Shown: positions 2,975 through 23,373 of the stretch, one piece after another
Layout of the letters: each line of letters opens with the position of its first letter
How positions within the stretch are numbered: position 1 is the stretch's first letter
Virus record (IMG/VR): IMGVR_UViG_2663763232_000005
Origin: a virus
Lineage: Duplodnaviria; Heunggongvirae; Uroviricota; Caudoviricetes
Length of the DNA: 23,373 bases
Strand: one strand, 5' to 3'
Program-made: the position numbers and the translations under genes
The notes under the pieces: model-generated
Databases searched by the model: none
Told to the model about the DNA's origin: nothing
Seen by the model: the letters and a program-made list of their open reading frames with translations, nothing else

Positions 2975-4053
2975 CAGAACGGGTCCTCCTGTACTCTGGC
3001 TTTTTTCTTTTTCCGCGCGCCGGGGGCTTCGGGTTCAGGCAGATAAGCATCAGGTGGGCCGACACGGATTTCCGTCAGGGTGCCGTTCTGGTCCTGAGTA
3101 AACGTGACTTCCGAGACAAGCAGTTCGGTATTGTCGAAACCACAGACCGGATCGAAGACAATCACCCGCTGGTTGGGCTGCCACAGCGTACCGTTACCCT
3201 GTCGCCAGCCCTGCACCACATAGGTGGTTTCATCCGTCCGCGCCGCCCGTTGTCGGGCTTCAAAGTCAGCACGCGCAATACAGCCTGCCCCCGTGGCCTG
3301 CCCTGTCTGCCTGATATACATCGGACGGTAACGAGCAATAAATGCGTCCTCTGTGCGGGCCCGCAGCGCGGTGGTGGTGGCCTCACCGAAATCATCGTCG
3401 TTTCCGGCACGCTGCCCCGCCACCTGGTAAACTGAAAACCGCTCCCGGATACTCTTCTCCGTATCACAGGAAAGGATGTTTTCCCCAAGTACCAGCGCGG
3501 TATGTGCCCGCGTTGAGCCAATACCGCCAATCACCAGCCTGCCGTGCGGGTCGTCATAAGCCAGCGCCTGCTGCTGACCGAGTATTTTGTTGATTACCTC
3601 AATCACCGTTTCACCGTGATCAGGCTGGACATCAGGAATAACACCCGACGGCGCACCGCTGTTCACCACCTCAATGCCGAAAGGCGCAGCAAGCGCCTGC
3701 GCAATCTGTACCAGCGATCGTCCGTTAAACTGTGTCGGTTCGGCTGCACAGTCAATCAGGTCAGCGGTCAGACTGCGTCCGGCAATACCGGTGCTGACCG
3801 AACGGGCATCGTAACGAACGGGCGTCGCCTCCACCCAGCCGGTGATCACCAGCTCATCACCAATCAGCACCTCCACTTTTGAACCGTTTTTAATGCGCGG
3901 CTGAAGCGTGGTGATACCCTCATCTCCCGGCCACTGGCGGGTGATCTCCACACTGAAATCCCGCGCCAGTCGTTCAACACCGGCACCGATGCGCACCGAT
4001 GTCCAGCCATTCCACTCCCGGCCATTTACCCGTAGCGTGACGTTATCGTTCAT
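2974..4053 (-). CDS. Baseplate hub protein (Mu gp44 / P2 gpD-like)
   Basis: 359-aa ORF between the gp43-like and gp45-like genes, with 4-nt overlap with gp43-like. Confidence 0.6.
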   Translation of the reverse strand: MNDNVTLRVNGREWNGWTSVRIGAGVERLARDFSVEITRQWPGDEGITTLQPRIKNGSKVEVLIGDELVITGWVEATPVRYDARSVSTGIAGRSLTADLIDCAAEPTQFNGRSLVQIAQALAAPFGIEVVNSGAPSGVIPDVQPDHGETVIEVINKILGQQQALAYDDPHGRLVIGGIGSTRAHTALVLGENILSCDTEKSIRERFSVYQVAGQRAGNDDDFGEATTTALRARTEDAFIARYRPMYIRQTGQATGAGCIARADFEARQRAARTDETTYVVQGWRQGNGTLWQPNQRVIVFDPVCGFDNTELLVSEVTFTQDQNGTLTEIRVGPPDAYLPEPEAPGARKKKKARVQEDPF

Positions 4054-5378
4054 TGCACTGGCACCTTCAGAGGGATCACCGGCACAAAGCCGGGATGCGT
4101 AATGGCATTACGCCGGATAATGTCCGCGTCACGCGCCGCGTTATCAAACCAGGTCGCCGCCAGCACCAGCGCGGGTAAAACCTCATCCGGCGTGCGCTGA
4201 ATGATCCGTGCAGACTGTTCAAGGCGCGTGTTGATATCCGCATTCAGATCTGCTTTCACCCGGCGCAGCGCCAGAAACAGCGCATCACTGGTTGTACGGG
4301 ACAACTCCTTATCAATTGCCGTATTCAGTGTGTCGCGAATGTCAGTCAGTTCTTCCCACGTCGGCAGATCAACCGTGTTTTTCACCGCCGGTGCATTGTT
4401 CAGTGCCGGATGCGTGACGGAAGGCCAGCCGGTGCTCTGCGCAGCTGTTGTTGCCTGCCCCACTGCGGCATCCTGCACCACCGCGGAAGTTGTTGGCGCA
4501 GGCAATCGGGTGACGGCATACGCCGCTTCGCTGATTGCGGTCGTACGAAGGGTGCTGGCAACCACGTTACGCTGCTGCGTCGCCGTAGCGGTGGTTTTAC
4601 TGTCCGTTTTCCAGACGCCGCGCGGTTGCAGATCGCTGCCGAGGCTGACACCGGAAAGCGTTTTGATCATGGTGACCAGGTCGCTGGCGTTACCATAAAG
4701 GCGTTTCCCGGTACGCCACATTTTCTGCACCTGCTCAACGAAATTTTTGCCTGACGATGGCGGCGGCAGAAGTACCGAGATATCCCCCTGCAACAGCCTG
4801 GCGGCATCCGATACGGCAGAATCCACCACTTTCATCGCATCAGAAATATACCCAAGCATTGTGCCGGCATTACCGACGACGTCGTTCTGCACAAAATCTG
4901 CCACGCCATCGATACTGAAACCACTGAAACTGTCACTGATGCAGTCATCCAGTGCAGAACAGGATGACATCAGCGTCTGCGCCGTCGCCGCACCTGATGT
5001 GGGGTAAGAGAGTTCTCCCGCTTCGACAAACTTCAGGTCAAAGCGGACAATACGCCCTTCACTTTTCGATGTGCTGACCCGAACTTCCCCATCAACACAG
5101 ACTTTCAGCTCACCATATGTCGGGTGGACAAGCGTGCCGGGACCGGGTTTATTCAGCGCTTCAATCAGGCGATCGCGCTGGTCAAAGCAGTCATCTCCCA
5201 CCACATAAGCTGTGATGGACGGGCGGAAAGTGACTTTTCCCAGATCTTCGGTATAGGGTTTGTCGCGGTTCGGATATTCGTGTGTTTCCACACGACGGCC
5301 GGTTCCCGCACTTTCTTCTTCAACCTTAAACGGCACACCTCGAAATGACGCATCCTGAAGCCTGTCTTTCCACGTCAT
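4050..5378 (-). CDS. Tail protein, DNA circulation protein family (Mu gp43/N-like)
   Basis: Track ORF starts at GTG 5384; the ATG at 5378 (MTWKDRLQDASFRGVPFKVEEE...) is preceded by GGAG 5 nt upstream and is the likelier start. About 442 aa, first gene after the tape measure/moron as in Mu-like tails. Confidence 0.7.
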   Translation of the reverse strand: MTWKDRLQDASFRGVPFKVEEESAGTGRRVETHEYPNRDKPYTEDLGKVTFRPSITAYVVGDDCFDQRDRLIEALNKPGPGTLVHPTYGELKVCVDGEVRVSTSKSEGRIVRFDLKFVEAGELSYPTSGAATAQTLMSSCSALDDCISDSFSGFSIDGVADFVQNDVVGNAGTMLGYISDAMKVVDSAVSDAARLLQGDISVLLPPPSSGKNFVEQVQKMWRTGKRLYGNASDLVTMIKTLSGVSLGSDLQPRGVWKTDSKTTATATQQRNVVASTLRTTAISEAAYAVTRLPAPTTSAVVQDAAVGQATTAAQSTGWPSVTHPALNNAPAVKNTVDLPTWEELTDIRDTLNTAIDKELSRTTSDALFLALRRVKADLNADINTRLEQSARIIQRTPDEVLPALVLAATWFDNAARDADIIRRNAITHPGFVPVIPLKVPVQ

Positions 5379-5385
5379 ATACACT

Positions 5386-5419
5386 CCGAAAATAAAAAAG
5401 CCACCTATTAGAAGGTGGC
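5386..5419 (-). terminator. Intrinsic terminator downstream of the moron ORF
   Basis: On the minus strand GCCACCT-TCTAAT-AGGTGGC (7-bp stem, 6-nt loop) is followed directly by TTTTTTATTTT. The U-tract runs into the RBS of the gp43-like gene. Confidence 0.75.
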
Positions 5420-15623: not shown

Positions 15624-17357
15624 TTAAAGCGAGCGGATCCCATAGGACTCAATGTGGTCAGACAGCGTGTCTTCTTTCTCGTACAGCATGGCTCTGCCAA
15701 CCGCCATAATCAGCGCAACTGCACCATCGATTTTGTTTTCCGCCTGCTCCTTGACAGGCTTCACCACATCATCGTTACCCGGAATGGTTTTGCCGACCAC
15801 GTTGCCGATACACCAGGTCATGATGGGATTGCCGTCATGATGAAAGCGCCCCGATTCAATCGCCGCTTCCAGCTCTTTCATCGGATCGGACATGTTGGTG
15901 TAATTCTGAATGATGGTGATGGGGTTCAGGTCTTCATCAGCAAGGTCATGCGACAGCCCGGTCGCCCCGAAGGGGTCGATGGGTGACTCACTGACCGGGC
16001 TGATTTTGTTCGCCGCTTTGGCCTCCTCGAGGATGTAGCGATAATCCACCTCCGCACCAGCGGTAACAGTCAGAACGCCCATTTCCACCCATTTCTGAAA
16101 GCGTTCGGCTGTCCGGCGATCTTCATTTTTCTCGACGCTGTACACCGTGTCATACGGTACCCAGAAACGCGGGGCTACACTGTAGTAATGCGTTTTACCG
16201 TCAATCTCGCGGGTATAAAGTCGCGCCATGCTGTTCATATCCAGCTTACGCGCCAGGTCAAAGGCCAGAATGCACGGCTGCCCCTCGAACTGCTCAAGGG
16301 TCAGTGATTTATCCTCGCAGCTCTGCCAGCTCACCAGGTTGAAATACGCCGAACGTGCCGACACCCAGATATTGAGGTGTTTTGTTTTAAAGACGTTTGC
16401 CAGACGGGCGTTATTTTTCGCACGCTGCTGCTGACTTAACAAAAATTCGCGATAAACCGACACGCCAATATTTGGATTGGCTTTTTCCAGCACCTGCGGG
16501 TCGGTCCAGTCGTCACCTTCATCAACGGTATAGATGATCCCGAACAGTTCATCGTTAGGCACCAAGCCGTTGAGCATCTCGATGACTTCCCGCCGCTTGT
16601 CGTAGCACGGCCCCTCAATGTTGTACCCGGCGGTGGTGATGGCCCACATCAGTGGCTGACGTCGCGCGCCCATCCCGGTAAGCATCGTGGTGTAAAGTGC
16701 ATCTGTGGCATGCTCGTGATATTCATCCACCACAGCACAGTGGGGTGATGAACCATCACCGGGGTTACCGATCAGCGGTTCAAACCGCGCGCCATCCTCC
16801 GGACGGTTCATGTTTGAGGCGTTAACCTCAATCCCGAACGCTTCCGTCAGCATGGGTGTGCGTTTACACATCAGTCGCGCCGGGCGAAAGACTTCCCACG
16901 CCTGTTTCTCTGTCGTGGCACCGGAATACACTTCCGCGCCAAACTCGTTATCACAGGCAAAACAATACAGGGCAACACCGGCAGAGATTGCCGATTTGCC
17001 GTTCTTACGGGGGATTTCGGTATACACCTCCCGGAAGCGGCGCAGCCGGGTACCTTTATTGACCCAGCCAAACGCACAGCAGATCACAAAGAGCTGCCAC
17101 GGCTCCAGCGTGATGGGCATCCGTTTGAATGCCCACTCACCCTTGGTATGCGGCAACAGCTGAATAAATTTGGCGGCCCGTTCAGCCAGGTCCTTGTCGA
17201 AGCGGTAACGAAACGACTTACTTTTTTCCGCCATCAGGTCATCAAGATGGCGCTGGCAGGCCTGAATCACAAACTGGCAGGCCACAATCTTTCCGCGAAC
17301 GACATCCCGGGCATACTGATTGGCAGCATTTACGTTGGGGTAAGATTTCCGGCTCAT
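15624..17357 (-). CDS. Terminase large subunit
   Basis: 577-aa ORF, size typical of terL, with ATGA overlap with the small subunit gene upstream and the portal gene downstream. Confidence 0.9.
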
Positions 17358-17857
17358 GATTCGATAATTTTCAGAAACGGGTTAGTGGCTTTCTTCTGCC
17401 CCGCCAGGCCAATCAGACGCTGGCGGCTGCTGGGGTCGAGTCCGAGCATTGCCCCCGTGCTGCTCATCTCGGACTCCTGTTCTTTTTTGGCGGTCAGCTC
17501 CGGGTTTTTGACCATACCGCCCATTGCACCGGTGATGGTGTTGCCCTGGCTGGCAATATTTTTCACGGCACGTCGCCAGAACTCATAGGCCACGCACCAC
17601 CGCTCAAGTACCGCCAGGTCAGTCACGCACAACAGGCCCTGACCGCAGAGTTCTTTGGTTGTCAGTTGCCACATGATCGTGGCGAGAGGGAGATCTTCTT
17701 CAGCGAACCACTCCGGTGGCTCAACACCTTTGATGGGCGTAAAAACAGGTTCATCTTTGTTCAGGGCTCGCTTGCCGGGGTTTCCGGCCAGCGCCTTGCG
17801 CGCCGTTGGCTTGGGGCGACGCCCGGAACGCCCCGCCGTTCCAGCCATATGCGGCAC
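17354..17857 (-). CDS. Terminase small subunit (P27 family-like)
   Basis: 167-aa ORF with a basic N-terminus ([22 protein letters not shown]), immediately upstream of terL and downstream of HNH. Confidence 0.8.
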
Positions 17858-17973
17858 TCCTGGTTAAATTTCATTTTTCGCGGGTATAAAAAAACGATGG
17901 GGCGGGCAGTCCGGAAGACGTCAGGTCACAGAGATTTGACCCGCCCCTCCCCTCAGACAGTTGAGAGTTATTA
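17858..17973. other. Putative cos/packaging-initiation region
   Basis: 116-bp non-coding gap between the HNH and terS genes, containing the inverted repeat GGGGCGGG (about 17900) and CCCGCCCC (about 17941). The position matches where HK97-type phages carry cos. Confidence 0.3.
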
Positions 17974-18324
17974 TCACTTAAGCCGTTCACGGGCCGTCTT
18001 CGCCTTATGACACGGCCAGCACAGACTCTGCAGATTACTGTCGGCATCAGTGCCGCCATGTACTTTAGGGATGATGTGGTCAACGGTTTTCGCTTCACGC
18101 GCCACACCAGCACGCAGACATAACTGACACAGGCCTTTGTCACGTTGCAGCACACGCACACGGATAACATCCCACTTAGAACCATAACCGCGCTGATGAC
18201 GGGATCGTCCTGACTTGTATTGCTTCCAGCCTTCGCTTTTGTGGCTTTCGCAGTAGCCTGACGGGTCTGTCGTGGTATTACGGCAGCCGCGAACGCGGCA
18301 GGCTTTTGGAGTTCGAGGGGGCAT
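17974..18324 (-). CDS. HNH endonuclease
   Basis: 116-aa ORF with Cys-rich motifs (CRVRGC...CESH, HIIPKVHGG, CWPCH). AGGAA sits about 9 nt before the ATG. Adjacent to terS, as in HK97. Confidence 0.85.
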   Translation of the reverse strand: MPPRTPKACRVRGCRNTTTDPSGYCESHKSEGWKQYKSGRSRHQRGYGSKWDVIRVRVLQRDKGLCQLCLRAGVAREAKTVDHIIPKVHGGTDADSNLQSLCWPCHKAKTARERLK

Positions 18325-18900: not shown

Positions 18901-19360
18901 TTACTACCCCACCAGCTTTTTTAAATCGGGCAATCAGGTCACCGATTTTATGTTCATACTGACCGTAACCTGCACCAGGTAACGACGCCCAGATATTGCT
19001 GCAACGGTCGATTGCCTGACGAATACTGCCGCGGTCAATCATCGGTAAAGCACCACGCTCTTTAATCTGCTGCAGAGCTACAGCGTCCTGGCTTTCTGGA
19101 GAAAAATCTTTCAGGCCAAGCTGTTTACGGTAAGCATCCCACCAGCGTGAAAGAAGCTGGTAACGTCCGGCAGCTGTTGATTTGAGTTTGGGGTTTAGCG
19201 TGACAAGTTTGCGAGGGTGATCGGAGTAATCAGTGAACAGTTCGCCACCAACAATAACATCATAACCGTGGTTACGTGTCGGTTGTCGCCCGTTATCCGT
19301 TCCTTCTGACCATGCCACCATATCCAGGAAAGCTTTACGCTGGGAATTTAGTGCCTGCAT
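18884..19360 (-). CDS. Endolysin, lambda R-type lytic transglycosylase
   Basis: 158-aa ORF (NSQRKAFLDMVAWSEGTDNGRQPTRNHGYDVIVGGELFTDYSDHPRKLVTLNPKLKSTAAGRYQLLSRWWDAYRKQLGLKDF...) that is near-identical over most of its length to the lambda R sequence as I remember it. Confidence 0.85.
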   Translation of the reverse strand: MQALNSQRKAFLDMVAWSEGTDNGRQPTRNHGYDVIVGGELFTDYSDHPRKLVTLNPKLKSTAAGRYQLLSRWWDAYRKQLGLKDFSPESQDAVALQQIKERGALPMIDRGSIRQAIDRCSNIWASLPGAGYGQYEHKIGDLIARFKKAGGVVNEAEI

Positions 19361-19363
19361 AAA

Positions 19364-19699
19364 TTACTCCTTCGAGCTACCAAATTTGTTACCGATTACT
19401 CGCATTGCAGCCCCACGAATAGCATCGACACCGATCAGCCCCACGCCACCACCAATGGCAACAGAAAGCGATTTAGGCCATCCGACATATTCAAGAGCGG
19501 ATGCAAAGGTCAGCGTCAGAGCGCCACATAGCAAAATCTCGAGCGTTTTTCGCTTCCAGCCACCACCACCGCCAAAATAGGCGATGCGCAAACCAGCCAT
19601 AACGATCGACATAATCACTGCACCCAGCGGTGTGTCTCCACGCCACCAGCTCTGAAACAACTCCAGCCAGTCCGGCCAGGTATTTGGGTTATGAGGCAT
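19364..19699 (-). CDS. Holin (class I-like, three predicted TM helices)
   Basis: Start proposed at ATG 19699 with GAGGTG about 15 nt upstream, rather than the track start at 19795, which would overlap the methyltransferase. About 111 aa with three hydrophobic segments, immediately upstream of the endolysin. Confidence 0.6.
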   Translation of the reverse strand: MPHNPNTWPDWLELFQSWWRGDTPLGAVIMSIVMAGLRIAYFGGGGGWKRKTLEILLCGALTLTFASALEYVGWPKSLSVAIGGGVGLIGVDAIRGAAMRVIGNKFGSSKE

Positions 19700-19742
19700 T
19701 TCGTCATCTCTCACCTCGCGATATTTGCGGGTGCTGTGTTGG

Positions 19743-19768
19743 AAATAAAAAGGCCACGCAACGTGGCC
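19743..19768 (-). terminator. Intrinsic terminator between the methyltransferase and holin genes
   Basis: On the minus strand GGCCACG-TTG-CGTGGCC (7-bp stem) is followed by TTTTTATTTCC, starting 8 nt after the methyltransferase stop. Confidence 0.6.
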
Positions 19769-19775
19769 ACCAGAA

Positions 19776-20828
19776 TTATTTCCCCACCAGTTCACTTACC
19801 TCTTTCACCGTCTGATTAAACCGCTCTGACTCAAGTTCAACACCTAACGCCCGACGCCCCAGCGCCATTGCTGCTTTTATTGTGGAACCGGATCCCATAA
19901 AGAAATCAGCAACCAGATCACCAGGTCGACTACTGGCATTGATTATTTGCCGGAGCATATCCGCCGGTTTCTCGCACGGATGTTTACCCGGGTAGAACTG
20001 AACGGGCTTATGCGTCCAGACATCGGTATAAGGCACGGAGACTGATACGGAGAAATAGCGCCGGAGAGATTTAAACTCATCCAGCAATTCAGAATATTTG
20101 CGATTCAGTGAATCATAAGATGCCACCAGCTGGTGGTGTGGTTGTTCCAGTTGTTGTTCCTGAAACTTCTCTGCCGCTATACGGGAAAACAGTGCCTGTA
20201 ACTTCCGATAGTCAGCCTCATTCGGCAACTGCCACTGACTGGCACCAAACCAGTGGGAAACCATATTTTTCTTACCTGTGGCTTCGGCAATTTGTTTTGC
20301 CGTTATACCCAGTTCGGCACGAGCATCCCTGAAATACGATATCAGCGGTGCCATTATGTGCTGTTTGAGTTCCCTTTCTTTTGCCGCATAGCCGTCACTT
20401 TTGCCGCGATATGGCCCCTGGTAATGTTCAGCAAACAGAACGCGCTCTGTAGCGGGGAAATATGCCCGCAGGCTTTCTTTATTACACCCGTTCCATCGTC
20501 CGGACGGCTTCGCCCAGATGATATGGTTAAGCACGTTGAAACGTTCACGCATCATGATCTCGATATCAGATGCGAGGCGATGTCCACAGAACAGGTAAAG
20601 GCTTCCGGCTGGTTTCAGTACCCGCCAGAACTGGGCCAGACAGTAGTCCAGCCACTTCAGGTAATCTTCGTCCCCTTTCCACTGATTGTCCCAGCCGTTG
20701 GGCTTCACTTTGAAGTACGGCGGATCGGTAACAATCAGATCAATGGAATCATCAGGCAAGGACTGAATAAAATGCAGGCAATCAGCGTTGATTAAATCAA
20801 CACTGTTTATTTTTACAGTATTTTTCAT
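19776..20828 (-). CDS. DNA methyltransferase, beta-class N6-adenine/N4-cytosine (orphan, no endonuclease partner in window)
   Basis: 350-aa ORF with motif IV DPPY near the N-terminus (IDLIVTDPPYF) and motif I FxGxG near the C-terminus (VADFFMGSGST), the order diagnostic of beta-class amino-methyltransferases. No Shine-Dalgarno is visible before the ATG. Confidence 0.85.
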   Translation of the reverse strand: MKNTVKINSVDLINADCLHFIQSLPDDSIDLIVTDPPYFKVKPNGWDNQWKGDEDYLKWLDYCLAQFWRVLKPAGSLYLFCGHRLASDIEIMMRERFNVLNHIIWAKPSGRWNGCNKESLRAYFPATERVLFAEHYQGPYRGKSDGYAAKERELKQHIMAPLISYFRDARAELGITAKQIAEATGKKNMVSHWFGASQWQLPNEADYRKLQALFSRIAAEKFQEQQLEQPHHQLVASYDSLNRKYSELLDEFKSLRRYFSVSVSVPYTDVWTHKPVQFYPGKHPCEKPADMLRQIINASSRPGDLVADFFMGSGSTIKAAMALGRRALGVELESERFNQTVKEVSELVGK

Positions 20829-20978
20829 GGATCAGTAAGCGTAACTCTGGTAGGCTCACTCTGCTTTTGCGCTAAAGCAGTGGGCCGTGGTTCGCTTGTG
20901 ACCAGTAAGCATGAGCGAATGGCTGGCAGGTGCTACCAACACCCACCAGCCGCCCATTTTCACAGCAGGAAACCGCCA

Positions 20979-21206
20979 TTACTGGCAGCGTCTGAATTTA
21001 TTCCCGTACCCGCCGTTATCCTTCGCCAGACCCGCCAGAACTAACTGAGTCAGTATTAACTGGCACCGGGCTTCGCTTACTCCGGTAGTTCTCGTCATCA
21101 TGCGTGGCGTTACCCACTTGTCAGCAGGTAAGAAATGAAGGACTGCGGCGGCGGTTTCTGTCATATCTTGCTGTTTTAGCATGTCTTTTTCCCTTCTGGT
21201 TAACAT
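20979..21206 (-). CDS. Small hypothetical protein, possibly winged-helix DNA-binding
   Basis: 75-aa ORF; an internal start at 21182 (M9) is preceded by GAAGGGA. The segment VTPRMMTRTTGVSEARCQLILTQLVLAGLA looks like a helix-turn-helix. Lies between the tR'-like terminator and the methyltransferase. Confidence 0.4.
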   Translation of the reverse strand: MLTRREKDMLKQQDMTETAAAVLHFLPADKWVTPRMMTRTTGVSEARCQLILTQLVLAGLAKDNGGYGNKFRRCQ

Positions 21207-21300
21207 GACATACCAATAACTCTTGTCTAAAAAGCCAGCAAGATAAAAAGTCAGTATTCACGACCACCAGCGTGTTTACTGTACTGCACCAGGTTTACAG

Positions 21301-21330
21301 GTACAAAAAAACCGCTCGACGGCGGGTTTA
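21301..21330 (-). terminator. Candidate late-operon terminator (tR'-like), weak
   Basis: On the minus strand a short GC stem (CCGC-CGTCGA-GCGG) is followed by seven T. The stem is only 4 bp, so strength is uncertain. Confidence 0.3.
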
Positions 21331-21482
21331 AGCTGTGTGGCGAAGTAACCACTCTTAACACAGTAAACGAGAAAATGCGGACCGCGTAAGTTTTTTTTGA
21401 TAGATTATGCATATGCAACGAACCCAGGATCATTAACAAATCACAACCCATTGATTCAAAAGGATAATAAAGGGTAATTTTA

Positions 21483-22415
21483 ATGACTACTACAGCCACT
21501 TCCGCGCCACTAACTAAACAAAAAAAAATGCGTATCGGTTTCTTCCAAAGCTCCTCAGGAACGAAGTCAACTACATCAAATGCACAACTTGCATTTGACA
21601 ACATGTATACAACCATTGTTACACCTTCGCAAAATTCTTATACCGCTGAGTTTGATAAGAAAAAATTAAAGATTGTATTCTTAGAAAAAGACGCACAGGC
21701 GGAGTTCTATTTTGGTTATCTATCATGCTCTCGTGATGGTTTCCACTTACCTTATATTGGTGATGAAAATTGGGATGAGCACAATATTCCGTTAGATGAT
21801 AAAAAATATATAGTCGAACGCACTTATTTTATTTACTACTATAAGAAAGACATTCTTGTTTTATCTCAAAATCATTTAGGACCTAAAGTTTCCGATTTAG
21901 CATTTCTTTTATTCAATTTTTCTGAAGAAAACAAACCTGTAGCGTTTGAGGCAATTTGGAAAAAAGAAAGTGTAAAAGAACTACTTGAAACAGGAAGCAC
22001 TTTACGTAGCTGTGAAATTACACTCGCCGCTCCACGTAATTTTAGCGCAACGGATTATGACCTTTCGAATTCATTTTCCAAAAGTATGATTGAAATGATG
22101 GCTGGGATGGGCGGTTCGCATTTAAAACTATCACTTAGAGGTAGAGCATCGCAACGTAAATTAATCCGTGGTTATCTCAGTGATGAAGTAAAAAGTGGAA
22201 TAAAGGAATTAATAGAAAAAGTTCCTCACTTATTACGTAAAGCTAATGTCACTGAACCTAAAAATACTCATTCAAGGAGTCTTCTCAATCAAGTTCTGAT
22301 CAGTGAAAAAAACATTAACACAAAAGATGGCTACGCAAAAGAAACAGATGTGCGTACTGCCTTGATCAGTGCTAAAATTGAACATGGTCAGTATTTAAAG
22401 CAATATGAAATCTGA
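21483..22415 (+). CDS. Hypothetical soluble protein, first gene of an AT-rich two-gene cargo cassette (candidate defence/exclusion sensor)
   Basis: 310-aa ORF on the strand opposite to all phage late genes; AT-rich and Lys/Asn/Ile-rich. AAGGG lies 8 nt before the ATG. No motif I recognise; SSSGTKST is not a canonical Walker A. Confidence 0.6.
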   Translation: MTTTATSAPLTKQKKMRIGFFQSSSGTKSTTSNAQLAFDNMYTTIVTPSQNSYTAEFDKKKLKIVFLEKDAQAEFYFGYLSCSRDGFHLPYIGDENWDEHNIPLDDKKYIVERTYFIYYYKKDILVLSQNHLGPKVSDLAFLLFNFSEENKPVAFEAIWKKESVKELLETGSTLRSCEITLAAPRNFSATDYDLSNSFSKSMIEMMAGMGGSHLKLSLRGRASQRKLIRGYLSDEVKSGIKELIEKVPHLLRKANVTEPKNTHSRSLLNQVLISEKNINTKDGYAKETDVRTALISAKIEHGQYLKQYEI

Positions 22416-22429
22416 TCTTATTTTTAAGG

Positions 22430-22882
22430 ATGATGATTATGCTTATTAAAGTTTTAATTAACATAGTTATCAGTGGGCTGTTAGCTTGGGTGCTTGGGAA
22501 ATACCTAGCGCCTATGGCTCACTCTGATATCTTAAGTACAGCCGGAGTGTTATCTACGGTGGCAGGCATTTTGTTTGGTTTTGTATTGGCCGCTATTTCC
22601 ATCTTCAGTTCTGCAAGTTCAAGTACTGATGGAATTATTTTTGCTTTAAAACAAAACAAGATTTTACCTAAAATTATTCATAACCTGTTATCTACGGGAG
22701 TTACCTTAATATTAGCATGTATTTTCCCGCTGATAGCAATGTTTATAAATGAAAAAATCACCATTACCTCTGTAAGACTTGATTTCGCCCTAACCTTATA
22801 TGGTTTCTCGACCCTGATCGTATCAATAGTTTCATTTGCAAGTACCTGGAGAAAAATAAACTGGATATTACCCCACATATAA
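22430..22882 (+). CDS. Hypothetical integral membrane protein with four predicted TM helices, second gene of the cassette (candidate effector)
   Basis: 150-aa ORF starting 14 nt after the upstream stop. AAGGA precedes the start; the ATG at 22439 has the best spacing. Four hydrophobic segments at roughly residues 5-27, 38-62, 78-106 and 118-140. Confidence 0.6.
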   Translation: MMIMLIKVLINIVISGLLAWVLGKYLAPMAHSDILSTAGVLSTVAGILFGFVLAAISIFSSASSSTDGIIFALKQNKILPKIIHNLLSTGVTLILACIFPLIAMFINEKITITSVRLDFALTLYGFSTLIVSIVSFASTWRKINWILPHI

Positions 22883-22886
22883 TATT

Positions 22887-22910
22887 AAGCAGGTGCAAGC
22901 ACACCTGCTT
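22887..22910. promoter_or_regulatory. Hairpin between the convergent Q gene and cassette ends (possible bidirectional terminator)
   Basis: AAGCAGGTG-CAAGCA-CACCTGCTT, a perfect 9-bp stem between the cassette stop (22882) and the Q stop (22926). Flanks are A/U-rich on the minus-strand side (UUAAUAUUAUAU) but there is no clean U-tract. Confidence 0.4.
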
Positions 22911-22925
22911 ATCCAAACCAAGATA

Positions 22926-23288
22926 TTAATCCATATCTAAGCTAACATTTAGAATAGCTAGACAACCTTCTATAAATCCCTCAGCCATCTGTATCTCAAT
23001 GCGTATTATTTTCTCATCCTTTTTGCGAGCTTTAGCGAGCTTTCTTTTAGAGATACCGTATAGGTAATGGGCAACAAGAAGCGAGTGTTCTTCAGGTCTT
23101 TTTTGCTTTAGACGAGCAAGACAACCTTCAATAATTAATGCATCACTATCTGAACAAGCCTGACGTGTTTTGCTTGTATAGGGAAGAAGCCCTTTAAACC
23201 CAGCAGCTATAGGCGAATAGTCTACCCCAGAACTATCACTCGCCGCCCATGCACCCCAACGATCCAGAACCATCTGAATATCACGCAT
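22926..23288 (-). CDS. Late-gene antiterminator Q (phage 82 / QuuD-like family)
   Basis: Track ORF runs to 23366, but the ATG at 23288 is preceded by GGAG 7 nt upstream and gives MRDIQMVLDRWGAWAASDSSGVDYSPIAAGFKGLLP..., which resembles the QuuD-type Q N-terminus as I recall it. Confidence 0.65.
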   Translation of the reverse strand: MRDIQMVLDRWGAWAASDSSGVDYSPIAAGFKGLLPYTSKTRQACSDSDALIIEGCLARLKQKRPEEHSLLVAHYLYGISKRKLAKARKKDEKIIRIEIQMAEGFIEGCLAILNVSLDMD

Positions 23289-23373
23289 CAACTTTCTCCA
23301 CAAAATCAGGCCAGCATGACCTGCTCCCCGTTGATTAGTACACCCCGATGTTAGTAATGTCTTCATAAGCCAC

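What the first reader, a model, noticed from the sequence alone, without database searches (positions are those of the whole stretch)
20829..22925. Q is separated from the late genes by about 2 kb carrying a convergent cassette; the late promoter cannot be pinned down
In lambda-type phages pR', qut and tR' usually lie directly 3' of Q. Here Q's stop (22926) faces a convergent cassette. The only terminator-like elements on the late strand are a weak hairpin plus T7 at 21301..21330 and a better one at 19743..19768. I could not find a convincing sigma70 promoter by eye in 21330..21500 or just 3' of Q. Either pR' lies inside or antisense to the cassette, so late transcription would collide with cassette transcription, or it has been displaced downstream.
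Basis: inference. Interest (0 to 1): 0.45.

Follow-up and report, generated by a model that had tools for sequence, protein, structure and literature searches.

The report
Defence-like cassette splits Q from promoter
A two-gene cassette resembling lambda's RexAB phage-exclusion system sits between this prophage's late-gene activator Q and the late promoter Q acts on; the promoter can be placed by comparison with a mapped Shiga-toxin-phage promoter, and related prophages often carry different, frequently defence-like, cargo at this junction.

Summary
Q (22926..23288, minus strand) is followed by a low-GC, convergent two-gene cassette (21483..22882, plus strand). The first annotated late gene, a methylase, starts about 2.1 kb away.

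The late promoter can be placed. Window 21398..21305 (minus strand) aligns column for column with the annotated pR'/qut/terminator of phage 933W, whose start site was mapped by dRNA-seq in the Sakai prophage Sp5. This gives:
- -35-like TTACGC at 21389..21384
- -10 TACTGT at 21365..21360
- predicted +1 at about 21353
- a weak hairpin plus T7 at 21326..21305

The cassette therefore lies between Q and pR', so late and cassette transcription diverge and should not collide.

In 109 related loci the gap between Q and pR' ranges from 5 bp to 3 kb. Cargo is present in 71% of them, in 30 sequence types that include Kiwa and other known or candidate defence systems. A palindrome at a fixed promoter position (GCGGTCCGC here) tracks the Q subtype without exception and is the likely Q-binding site.

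The parts
22926..23288 (-). Antiterminator Q gene, 933W-type member of Pfam PF06530, 120 aa from the MRDIQ start. The open frame extends to 23366.
   Evidence: Pfam E 6e-52. It is 47.5% identical to 933W Q and 87.5% to phage cdtI Q. The match to phage 21 Q structures is distant (E 4e-4).
22886..22911 (.). 11-bp hairpin between the Q stop and the cassette stop. It is a likely two-way transcription barrier but has no clean U-tract on either strand.
   Evidence: Folding gives -17.4 kcal/mol (minus strand, z -3.6) and -15.5 kcal/mol (plus strand, z -5.3). About 22 of 30 other cargo types also begin with a stable hairpin right after Q.
22430..22882 (+). Second cassette gene: 150-aa membrane protein with four predicted TM segments, the same size and topology as RexB.
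   Evidence: Hydropathy scan. The gene is conserved as a partner of DUF6731 in E. coli, Yersinia and Klebsiella. Sequence similarity to lambda RexB is not significant.
21483..22415 (+). First cassette gene: 310-aa DUF6731 protein with a predicted RexA/RdgC-like fold.
21440..21468 (+). Candidate promoter of the cassette (ATCACA-17-GATAAT), divergent from pR'.
   Evidence: Consensus scan only, 9/12 matches. Not verified, and it lies very close to the start codon.
21391..21398 (-). A8 tract just upstream of the -35 region; could act as an UP element.
   Evidence: Read from the sequence. A-rich columns are conserved at this position in relatives regardless of cargo.
21384..21389 (-). -35-like hexamer TTACGC of pR', separated from the -10 by an 18-bp spacer.
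   Evidence: Aligns with the annotated TTTACG -35 of 933W pR', offset by 2 nt. The match to consensus is weak (3/6).
21377..21385 (.). Palindrome GCGGTCCGC, the candidate Q-binding element (QBE). It overlaps the -35 and the upstream part of the spacer.
   Evidence: It is the only exact copy in the window. The palindrome type at this fixed position tracks the Q subtype in 109 of 109 loci and in new Q variants from other genera. It also tracks the class-specific helix-turn-helix of Q.
21360..21365 (-). -10 hexamer TACTGT of pR'.
   Evidence: Aligns with the 933W -10 TATCAT. A at position 2 and T at position 6 are invariant in all 52 distinct promoter variants, while positions 3-5 vary.
21337..21353 (-). 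Predicted +1 (A21353) and the conserved initial transcribed region AGTGGTTACTTCGCCAC. It contains a small RNA hairpin (GUGGU/GCCAC) and a -10-like TACTTC at +7..+12, which is a candidate sigma-dependent pause element.
   Evidence: The motif occurs once in the window. In Sp5/933W the dRNA-seq start lies 258 nt upstream of the Term-seq 3' end (PMC7547250), which falls within TAAGA of the same motif. Fold.
21305..21326 (-). First terminator-like element after pR': a 4-bp GC stem plus T7, weak in this allele.
   Evidence: whole leader -13.1 kcal/mol, z -1.3. Divergent relatives keep a hairpin plus U-tract here with unrelated stem sequences. Phages with other Q types lose homology to the window at 21328 or 21360.
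20979..21206 (-). First late ORF, 75 aa, function unknown.
   Evidence: Annotated as hypothetical in cdtI, 1720a-02, Ayreon and Stx2_EH1846. No Pfam hit.
19776..20828 (-). N6/N4 DNA methyltransferase, the second late ORF.
   Evidence: Pfam PF01555 E 3e-42. PADLOC MTase_II E 4e-152.
19752..19768 (-). Strong intrinsic terminator between the methylase and the holin; probably the main barrier that Q-modified polymerase must pass.
   Evidence: 7-bp stem with 6 GC pairs, then TTTTTATTT. Folding gives -12.5 kcal/mol, z -2.8. The equivalent site is annotated as a terminator in phage Ayreon.

Best explanation
The 2.1-kb gap holds two separate things.

(1) A foreign two-gene cassette (21483..22882, plus strand, GC about 0.35). 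It has a candidate promoter and an end hairpin of its own and sits between the Q stop codon and the upstream edge of the late promoter. It encodes a soluble 310-aa protein with a predicted RexA-like fold, followed by a 150-aa four-TM protein. This is the same gene-pair layout as lambda RexA/RexB. I infer that it is expressed in the lysogen and acts as a phage-exclusion (abortive-infection) pair.

(2) The late regulatory region itself, intact on the far side of the cassette:
- A-tract 21398..21391
- -35-like TTACGC 21389..21384
- palindrome GCGGTCCGC 21385..21377, the inferred Q-binding element
- -10 TACTGT 21365..21360
- start near A21353
- a conserved initial transcribed region with a -10-like element
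- a weak hairpin plus T7 at 21326..21305

Proposed mechanism. Q is made from the early transcript and acts in trans, about 1.5 kb from its gene. It binds its matched palindrome, loads onto RNA polymerase paused just downstream of pR', and carries it through the weak first terminator. The polymerase then transcribes the 75-aa ORF and the methylase, passes the strong terminator at 19768..19752, and enters the lysis and structural genes. The cassette promoter and pR' are back to back and fire away from each other, so late transcription and cassette transcription should not collide.

Shown here: the homology, the conservation pattern, the linkage between Q subtype and palindrome, and the fold match. 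Inferred: promoter activity in this allele, Q binding to the palindrome, pausing, and the exclusion function.
For: Promoter position.
- 933W carries an annotated pR' (TTTACG-16-TATCAT), qut and terminator directly after its Q. That sequence aligns with window 21392..21305, sharing TAAGAGTGGTTAC.T.GCCAC and the following hairpin plus T-run.
- In Sakai Sp5 the pR' start mapped by dRNA-seq lies 258 nt upstream of the Term-seq 3' end (PMC7547250). On the Sp5 and 933W sequences this puts +1 within TAAGA, 7 nt after the -10.
- Phages 1720a-02 and Stx2_EH1846 have the window's Q class (about 74% identical) but no cassette. There the Q stop lies 40 bp from the motif.
- Phage cdtI has a diverged copy of the same cassette at the same place.
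- In 52 distinct promoter variants, A-11 and T-7 of the -10 are invariant and 47 read TAnnnT.

Q and site stay matched.
- In 109 loci the palindrome type at -28..-19 relative to the motif is fixed by the Q cluster: GCGGTCCGC, GCGTACGC, TTTACGATCGTAAA, TGTTATAACA or TGGAATTCCA. This holds across Q-to-promoter distances of 5 to 3013 bp.
- The 6 nt after the terminator T-run, by contrast, are shared between Q clusters.
- New Q variants in Yersinia and in other genome-scan loci carry new palindromes at the same position.
- The Q helix-turn-helix (residues about 80-105) is class-specific and tracks the palindrome, while the N-terminal 60 residues are conserved across classes.

The junction is a cargo site.
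- 77 of 109 loci carry cargo, in 30 sequence clusters. Nearly all cargo ORFs are antiparallel to the late strand, with GC 0.31-0.42.
- PADLOC hits among the cargo include KwaB (2e-150, with a TM partner), PDC-S20, PDC-M53A, NsnA/PD-T4-2, an OLD-like ATPase with a C5 methylase, PDC-S42 and PDC-M68A.

Cassette identity.
- The partner has 4 predicted TM segments. RexA is a 31-kDa soluble protein and RexB a 16-kDa four-TM protein (PMC11077077).
- The pair is conserved and mobile between prophage sites.
Against: - No transcript data exist for this element.
- The promoter is a poor consensus match (3/6 and 3/6, 18-bp spacer) and fails the scan.
- The -10-like element in the transcribed region (TACTTC) lacks the usual final T.
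- The first hairpin is weak here. In Sp5 its homologue is not the mapped 3' end; the mapped tR' is a second terminator at +258 that this window lacks. How much termination occurs before the methylase is therefore unknown.
- Linkage between Q and the palindrome could partly reflect co-inheritance rather than recognition.
- The conserved motif was the search key, so its own conservation comes from how the loci were chosen.
- The RexAB-like assignment rests on a predicted model and on gene-pair layout. Profile comparisons with RexA and RexB sequences are not significant (E 0.13 and 0.51), and PADLOC, which holds defence-system models, gave no hit.
Confidence: 0.75

Rival explanations
1. pR' lies immediately 3' of Q or inside the cassette on the antisense strand. 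Q-dependent late transcription would then run head-on into cassette transcription.
For: This is the textbook position of pR', and it holds in 933W, where pR' overlaps the end of Q. Three weak minus-strand promoter-like matches fall inside the cassette at 22288, 22081 and 22068.
Against: - Only 43 bp separate the Q stop from the cassette stop, and a hairpin fills them.
- The conserved transcribed motif and the Q-class palindrome each occur once in the window, both beyond the cassette.
- The number of promoter-like matches in the region is no higher than in shuffled sequence (9 found, 7.4 expected).
- In 77 related loci with 30 different cargos the conserved promoter is always on the far side of the cargo.
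Confidence: 0.03
2. Q is decoupled or defunct. The insertion separated it from its site, and late genes in this prophage are silent or expressed by another route, such as read-through from early promoters.
For: Lambda Q is reported to act preferentially in cis (my recollection of the older genetic literature, not checked here). If so, a 1.5-kb spacer with a hairpin could weaken coupling. The window's first terminator is weak, so Q might matter less for the first two late genes.
Against: - The Q ORF is intact and 100% identical in other loci.
- All 57 loci of the two largest Q classes (28 in the window's class, 29 in the GCGTACGC class) carry cargo and still keep the matching palindrome. That pattern points to continued selection on the pair.
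- The arrangement occurs in isolated phages (cdtI, vB_EcoS-569R4, mEp460_4F5).
- A strong terminator still guards the lysis genes.
Confidence: 0.07
3. The palindrome is not the Q-binding element. It could be an operator for another regulator, for example of the divergent cargo promoter, or a recombination or hairpin signal. Q specificity would then lie elsewhere.
For: - Phage 21 Q binds direct repeats, not a palindrome (PMC6606751).
- On the plus strand the window's palindrome plus the A-run scores as a terminator-like site (21375..21387).
- Physical linkage alone could produce the association.
Against: - The palindrome is present at the same position in cargo-free phages (933W, 1720a-02), where there is no divergent gene.
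- In 933W it is AT-rich (TTTACGATCGTAAA) and so is not a terminator stem.
- It lies between the -35 and -10, where the lambda and phage 21 QBEs lie.
- It tracks the Q helix-turn-helix class across up to 3 kb of unrelated cargo, while DNA just downstream of the terminator reassorts freely.
Confidence: 0.2
4. The cassette is not an anti-phage system. It could be a membrane toxin with a regulator, a lysogenic-conversion function, or a modulator of the prophage's own lytic switch.
For: - No PADLOC hit and no papers on DUF6731.
- Lambda RexA also acts independently of RexB on the lysis-lysogeny switch (PMC11077077).
- Some cargos at this junction are lipoproteins or unknowns with no defence signature.
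Against: - RexA-like fold plus a 4-TM partner.
- The same slot holds Kiwa and several PADLOC candidate systems in other prophages.
- The pair moves as a unit between prophage variable regions; in Klebsiella it lies next to a superinfection-immunity gene.
Confidence: 0.25

Closest known systems
Late regulatory region of Stx phage 933W / Sakai Sp5: Q, pR', qut and tR', with StxS as the short pR' transcript
   Same: - Same Q family (47.5% identity).
- Same promoter architecture, column for column: A-rich tract, palindrome over the -35 and spacer, -10 of form TAnnnT, TAAGAGTGGTTAC.T.GCCAC transcribed region, then a hairpin plus T-run.
- The start site is mapped experimentally in Sp5 (PMC7547250).
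   Different: - In 933W, pR' overlaps the 3' end of Q, with 17 bp from the Q stop to the motif. Here 1568 bp of foreign DNA intervene.
- The palindrome differs: TTTACGATCGTAAA in 933W against GCGGTCCGC here.
- 933W has a second terminator at +258 (the mapped tR'), followed by tRNA and stx genes. This window instead goes to a 75-aa ORF and a methylase, with the next strong terminator 1.6 kb downstream.
Phage 21 Q with its QBE (PDB 6P18, 6JNX)
   Same: Same Pfam family (PF06530). A helix-turn-helix reads a site between the -35 and -10, and loading occurs at a sigma-dependent promoter-proximal pause (PMC6606751).
   Different: Only a distant sequence match (E 4e-4). This Q is 120 aa against 162 aa. 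The phage 21 QBE is a direct repeat of TGAGCA, whereas the element here and in all sister classes is an inverted repeat.
Lambda RexA/RexB exclusion system
   Different: - No significant sequence similarity to RexA or RexB and no PADLOC or Pfam Rex hit.
- It lies between Q and pR' rather than next to cI under pRM.
- Function is untested.
Morons and prophage defence hotspots (for example the P2/P4 hotspots of Rousset et al. 2022, PMC9122126)
   Same: A compositionally foreign, self-contained transcription unit sits between two conserved phage features, and many alternative cargos, including known defence systems, occupy the same slot in relatives.
   Different: The slot is between a regulator gene and its own DNA target, in lambdoid prophages with 933W-type Q. 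My searches found no paper describing this junction as a hotspot, but they were limited to the held library.

Membership tests
Q antiterminator, Pfam PF06530 (phage 21 / 933W type) | Full-length match to the family profile above the curated cut-off | tested here: met
   175 bits against a cut-off of 26, residues 27-144 on profile positions 1-118 of 118.
Q antiterminator, Pfam PF06530 (phage 21 / 933W type) | Antitermination activity at its own late promoter | not testable with these tools
   Needs Q supplied in trans with a pR'-terminator-reporter fusion.
Lambdoid pR'/qut late regulatory region | Sigma-70 promoter whose start is followed by a terminator upstream of the late genes | tested here: met
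   Placed by homology to 933W/Sp5, which has a mapped start. The -10 A and T are invariant in 52 variants. A hairpin plus T7 follows at +28..+49. Activity in this allele is not shown.
Lambdoid pR'/qut late regulatory region | Q-binding element between the -35 and -10, specific to the cognate Q | tested here: inconclusive
   A palindrome at a fixed position tracks the Q class in 109 of 109 loci and tracks the Q helix-turn-helix. Binding has not been shown.
Lambdoid pR'/qut late regulatory region | -10-like sigma-dependent pause element in the initial transcribed region | tested here: inconclusive
   The only candidate is TACTTC at +7..+12. It reads TACATT in 933W and TACTTT in some relatives. 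The window's copy lacks the final T.
Lambdoid pR'/qut late regulatory region | Immediate adjacency of pR' to the Q gene | tested here: not met
   1537 bp lie between the Q stop and the -35. Adjacency is also absent in 77 of 109 related loci, so it is typical of the textbook phages rather than defining.
RexAB exclusion system | RexA fold: split globular domain plus dimerisation domain, RdgC-like | tested here: met
RexAB exclusion system | Adjacent downstream gene for a four-TM inner-membrane protein of about 16 kDa | tested here: met
   The 150-aa partner has four hydrophobic segments and is conserved as a partner.
RexAB exclusion system | Sequence membership in the RexA and RexB families | tested here: not met
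   No Pfam or PADLOC Rex hit. hhalign gives E 0.13 against RexA and 0.51 against RexB.
RexAB exclusion system | Exclusion of superinfecting phage that requires both proteins | not testable with these tools
   Needs phage challenge assays.
Moron | Independent unit with its own promoter and terminator between two phage functions, compositionally distinct, and absent from close relatives | tested here: met
   GC 0.35 against about 0.5 in the flanks. Absent in 1720a-02 and Stx2_EH1846. An end hairpin is present. The promoter is only a consensus match.
Kiwa (KwaA/KwaB) | KwaB (DUF4868) homology | tested here: not met
   No PADLOC hit for the window's proteins. hhalign of the DUF6731 family against a KwaB found at the same junction in other loci gives probability 0.2%. 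Gene order is also reversed.

The most novel reading that the evidence does not exclude
The Q|pR' junction of prophages with 933W-type Q is a dedicated and so far undescribed hotspot for exchange of anti-phage cargo. Cargo would be swapped by recombination in the flanking Q gene and pR'. This is tolerated because these Q proteins act efficiently in trans on a class-specific palindromic binding site, a recognition mode different from the direct repeats read by phage 21 Q. The DUF6731 plus 4-TM pair found there would be a new, sequence-divergent branch of RexAB-like abortive-infection systems.
Probability: 0.4. Interest if true: 0.6.

Novelty: new member of a known kind. Interest (0 to 1): 0.4.

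Why it matters
- **Annotation.** It settles where late transcription starts in a widespread group of E. coli, Shigella and Yersinia prophages. In particular, pR' should be looked for beyond the cargo, not next to Q.
- **Q specificity.** It gives a concrete, testable set of Q-binding sites: five or more Q classes, each with its own palindrome. This Q family controls Shiga-toxin expression, and its binding site is so far annotated only as putative.
- **Defence discovery.** It marks a slot that can be mined for new defence systems, because about two thirds of the cargo types there have no known function.
- **DUF6731.** It gives this family of unknown function a first structural and functional hypothesis, as a RexA-like sensor with a RexB-like membrane partner.

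Tried and rejected
- The consensus promoter scan of 19300..23373 found nothing on the late strand near 21330..21500. The promoter is too weak a match to find this way.
- Rfam at E up to 1 on 20800..23000 gave no match, so the leader is not a curated RNA family.
- PADLOC on both cassette proteins and on the 75-aa ORF gave no hit.
Ayreon and mEp460, which carry a different 250-aa Q, share homology only up to 21328, and PhiR40_1/PhiR55_1 only up to 21360; none reaches the -10, the palindrome or the -35, so they do not inform this promoter.
- Sequence-profile comparison of DUF6731 with KwaB, RexA and RexB gave nothing significant. I kept the RexA link only because of the fold match.
- The BFVD Foldseek search returned only uncharacterised phage proteins.
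- The genome-contig scan used a pattern with 14 specified bases. Only 7 of the 120 loci it returned had a PF06530 Q beside the motif; most of the rest came from unrelated phyla and look like chance matches. It gives anecdotes from other genera, not a census.
- Literature searches for DUF6731 returned no papers. Searches for a described hotspot between Q and the late promoter turned up nothing explicit, and the Tai paper concerns other sites.
- I considered whether the hairpin after Q is a classical bidirectional terminator. The stem is strong but neither side has a U-tract, so I call it only a likely barrier.
Full report
**What is in the sequence.** On the minus (late) strand the window carries Q at 22926..23288, a PF06530 protein (E 6e-52). 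The open frame reaches 23366, but relatives annotate the MRDIQ start. Two plus-strand ORFs converge on Q: 21483..22415 (310 aa, DUF6731) and 22430..22882 (150 aa). GC falls to 0.29-0.40 across them, against about 0.5 in the flanks. Only 43 bp separate the two stop codons, and an 11-bp hairpin (22911..22886) fills that gap. Reading on along the late strand come a 75-aa ORF (20979..21206), an N6/N4 methylase (19776..20828), a strong terminator (19768..19752), and then holin, lysozyme and Rz. So is the remark that no consensus-like promoter is visible: the scan finds none on the late strand in 21330..21500.

**Placing the late promoter.**
- The window's Q is 47.5% identical to Q of Stx phage 933W and only distantly related to phage 21 Q (E 4e-4).
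- 933W has an annotated pR' (TTTACG-16-TATCAT), qut and terminator directly after Q. That sequence aligns column for column with window 21392..21305.
- The aligned features are an A-rich tract, a palindrome over the -35 and upstream spacer, a -10 of form TAnnnT, the block TAAGAGTGGTTAC.T.GCCAC, and a hairpin plus T-run.
- In Sakai Sp5, which is identical to 933W over this promoter stretch, dRNA-seq and Term-seq put the pR' start 258 nt upstream of the tR' 3' end (PMC7547250). On the Sp5 and 933W sequences this places +1 within TAAGA, 7 nt after the -10.
- Transferred to the window this gives: A-tract 21398..21391, -35-like TTACGC 21389..21384, -10 TACTGT 21365..21360 (18-bp spacer), +1 near A21353, and hairpin plus T7 at 21326..21305.
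- The motif and the palindrome each occur exactly once in the window.

**Relatives with and without the cassette.** Phages 1720a-02 and Stx2_EH1846 carry a Q of the window's class (about 74% identical) but no cassette. There the Q stop lies 40 bp from the motif. Phage cdtI has a diverged copy of the same two-gene cassette in the same place. Phages with a different Q type (Ayreon, mEp460, the Stx2c phages) share the methylase module with the window only up to 21328, the terminator; two others, PhiR40_1 and PhiR55_1, whose Q I did not inspect, extend to 21360, the 3' edge of the -10. None of these reaches the -10, the palindrome or the -35. The segment upstream of about 21360 therefore belongs with Q, not with the late genes.

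**A wider sample.**
In 109 loci (the scan hits plus the window and the phage loci already fetched) a PF06530 Q lies upstream on the same strand.
- The distance from the Q stop to the motif is 5-40 bp in 32 loci and 527-3013 bp in 77 loci.
- The 77 inserts fall into 30 sequence clusters. Nearly all their ORFs are antiparallel to the late strand, with GC 0.31-0.42. About 22 of the 30 types begin with a stable hairpin right after Q.
- PADLOC recognises several of them: Kiwa (KwaB 2e-150, with a TM partner), PDC-S20, PDC-M53A, NsnA/PD-T4-2 with a methylase, an OLD-like ATPase with a C5 methylase, PDC-S42, and a PDC-M68A-like HNH protein.
- The junction between Q and pR' is thus a cargo slot enriched in known and candidate defence genes. 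The window's arrangement is the common state for its Q class: all 28 loci of that class carry cargo.
- Caveats: the loci are redundant, the scan was truncated, and the motif's own conservation follows from using it as the search key.

**The likely Q-binding element.**
- Among 52 distinct promoter variants, A-11 and T-7 of the -10 never change, while positions 3-5 vary.
- At -28..-19 relative to the motif, every locus has a short palindrome followed by an A (or T) run. Its sequence is fixed by the Q cluster: GCGGTCCGC for the window's class and the 1720a-02 class, GCGTACGC, TTTACGATCGTAAA (933W), TGTTATAACA and TGGAATTCCA. There are no exceptions in 109 loci, whatever the intervening cargo.
- The 6 nt after the terminator T-run, by contrast, are shared among Q clusters.
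- Yersinia prophages with the same DUF6731 cassette have GCGGCCGC. Other genome-scan loci with new Q variants have TGTAATTACA or GCGCTACGC.
- An alignment of Q representatives shows a conserved N-terminal 60 residues and a class-specific helix-turn-helix (about residues 80-105) that tracks the palindrome.
- The position, between the -35 and -10, matches where the lambda and phage 21 QBEs lie. The symmetry differs from the phage 21 direct repeat (PMC6606751).
- I take the palindrome as the probable QBE, but binding has not been shown.

**Weak points of the promoter model.**
- The hexamers are poor (3/6 each).
- The only -10-like element in the transcribed region is TACTTC at +7..+12, which lacks the final T present in 933W (TACATT).
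- The first hairpin is weak in this allele: a 4-bp GC stem, with the whole leader at -13.1 kcal/mol and z -1.3, against -21.9 kcal/mol in Sp5.
- In Sp5 the homologous hairpin is not the mapped 3' end. The mapped tR' is a second terminator at +258 that the window lacks.
- Divergent relatives do keep a hairpin plus U-tract at this place with unrelated stems, which argues that it is functional.
- In this prophage the strong terminator at 19768..19752 may be the main barrier, and the 75-aa ORF and methylase may be partly expressed without Q. That last point is an inference.

**The cassette.**
- DUF6731 homologues occur across Enterobacterales, and wherever the neighbourhood was inspected they have a membrane partner of about 148 aa.
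- In Yersinia the pair sits between Q and pR', as here. In Klebsiella it sits in a different prophage variable region, next to a superinfection-immunity gene.
- The partner has four predicted TM segments. Lambda RexA is a 31-kDa soluble RdgC-like protein, and RexB is a 16-kDa four-TM protein encoded just downstream (PMC11077077).
- Sequence-profile comparisons with RexA, RexB and KwaB are not significant, and there are no PADLOC hits or papers.
- I therefore call it RexAB-like in fold and layout, not a member of the Rex sequence families. Its exclusion function is inferred.

**Conclusion.** The gap is explained by a self-contained, foreign, probably defensive two-gene unit inserted between Q and its target promoter. 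The promoter is intact on the far side, divergent from the cassette, and matched to its Q. Late and cassette transcription run in opposite directions away from each other, so no collision is expected. Early transcripts that pass the hairpin after Q would be antisense to the cassette. The layout is an ordinary moron. Three points are modestly new: the prevalence and diversity of cargo at this junction, the Q-class-specific palindromes, and the RexA-like fold of DUF6731. My literature searches found no description of any of these, but they covered only the held library.

Noticed in passing
window 21337..21357 (minus strand) and loci L004-L126: The initial transcribed region AGAGTGGTTAC.T.GCCAC is nearly identical across Q classes that differ in their palindromes. 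It can form a small RNA hairpin (GUGGU/GCCAC) whose loop holds the -10-like element. The reason for such strong conservation (pause signal, Q loading, or an RNA function like StxS) is open. Part of the conservation follows from using the motif as the search key.
   Followed up: partly
window 21305..21326, compared with L134 670..695: In Sakai Sp5 the homologous hairpin plus T7 at about +27..+50 is not the 3' end reported by Term-seq; the reported tR' is at +258. The window lacks that second terminator and has a one-G-shorter stem. The role of this first hairpin, and whether the methylase is expressed in lysogens, is unclear.
   Followed up: partly
loci L012 and L085 (cargo cluster 10), L017 (cluster 4), L092 and L086 (clusters 9 and 22): Other prophages carry Kiwa (KwaA/KwaB), a KAP-NTPase candidate system (PDC-S20), and methylase-linked NsnA/PD-T4-2-like and OLD-like ATPase systems in the same Q|pR' slot. 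About two thirds of the 30 cargo types have no PADLOC match.
   Followed up: partly
cargo clusters 1, 20, 15/24 and 29 (for example L007, L052, L089, L122): Several unrelated cargos repeat the pattern of a soluble protein of about 270-350 aa plus a membrane protein of about 110-195 aa, as in Kiwa and RexAB. They could be further sensor-plus-membrane-effector pairs. I did not model them.
   Followed up: no
L127-L130 (Klebsiella), 3013..5407: The DUF6731 plus 4-TM pair also occurs outside the Q|pR' slot, between a primase gene and tail genes and next to an Imm_superinfect gene. In two of the four places the partner gene is not called.
   Followed up: no
window 20829..20978 (minus strand): The 150-bp spacer between the 75-aa ORF and the methylase contains a GC-rich imperfect inverted repeat (GGCTGGTG...CACCTGCCAGCC) with no T-run. 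In 1720a-02 the equivalent spacer has a terminator-like hairpin instead.
   Followed up: no
window 23289..23366: The mechanical ORF for Q starts 26 codons upstream (MKTLL...) of the MRDIQ start annotated in cdtI and 1720a-02. The window ends at 23373, so the upstream DUF968 gene seen in relatives is cut off.
   Followed up: no
window 17354..18324: An HNH endonuclease ORF (17974..18324) lies directly upstream of the first of two likely terminase ORFs (17354..17857, then 15624..17357). This is my reading of the translations; no family search was run on them. The rest of the window looks like an SfV/cdtI-type prophage.
   Followed up: no
window 21251..21616 (minus strand): A 121-aa mechanical ORF spans pR' and the start of the cassette. 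It has no family hit, overlaps the promoter region and the DUF6731 start, and is almost certainly not a gene.
   Followed up: partly
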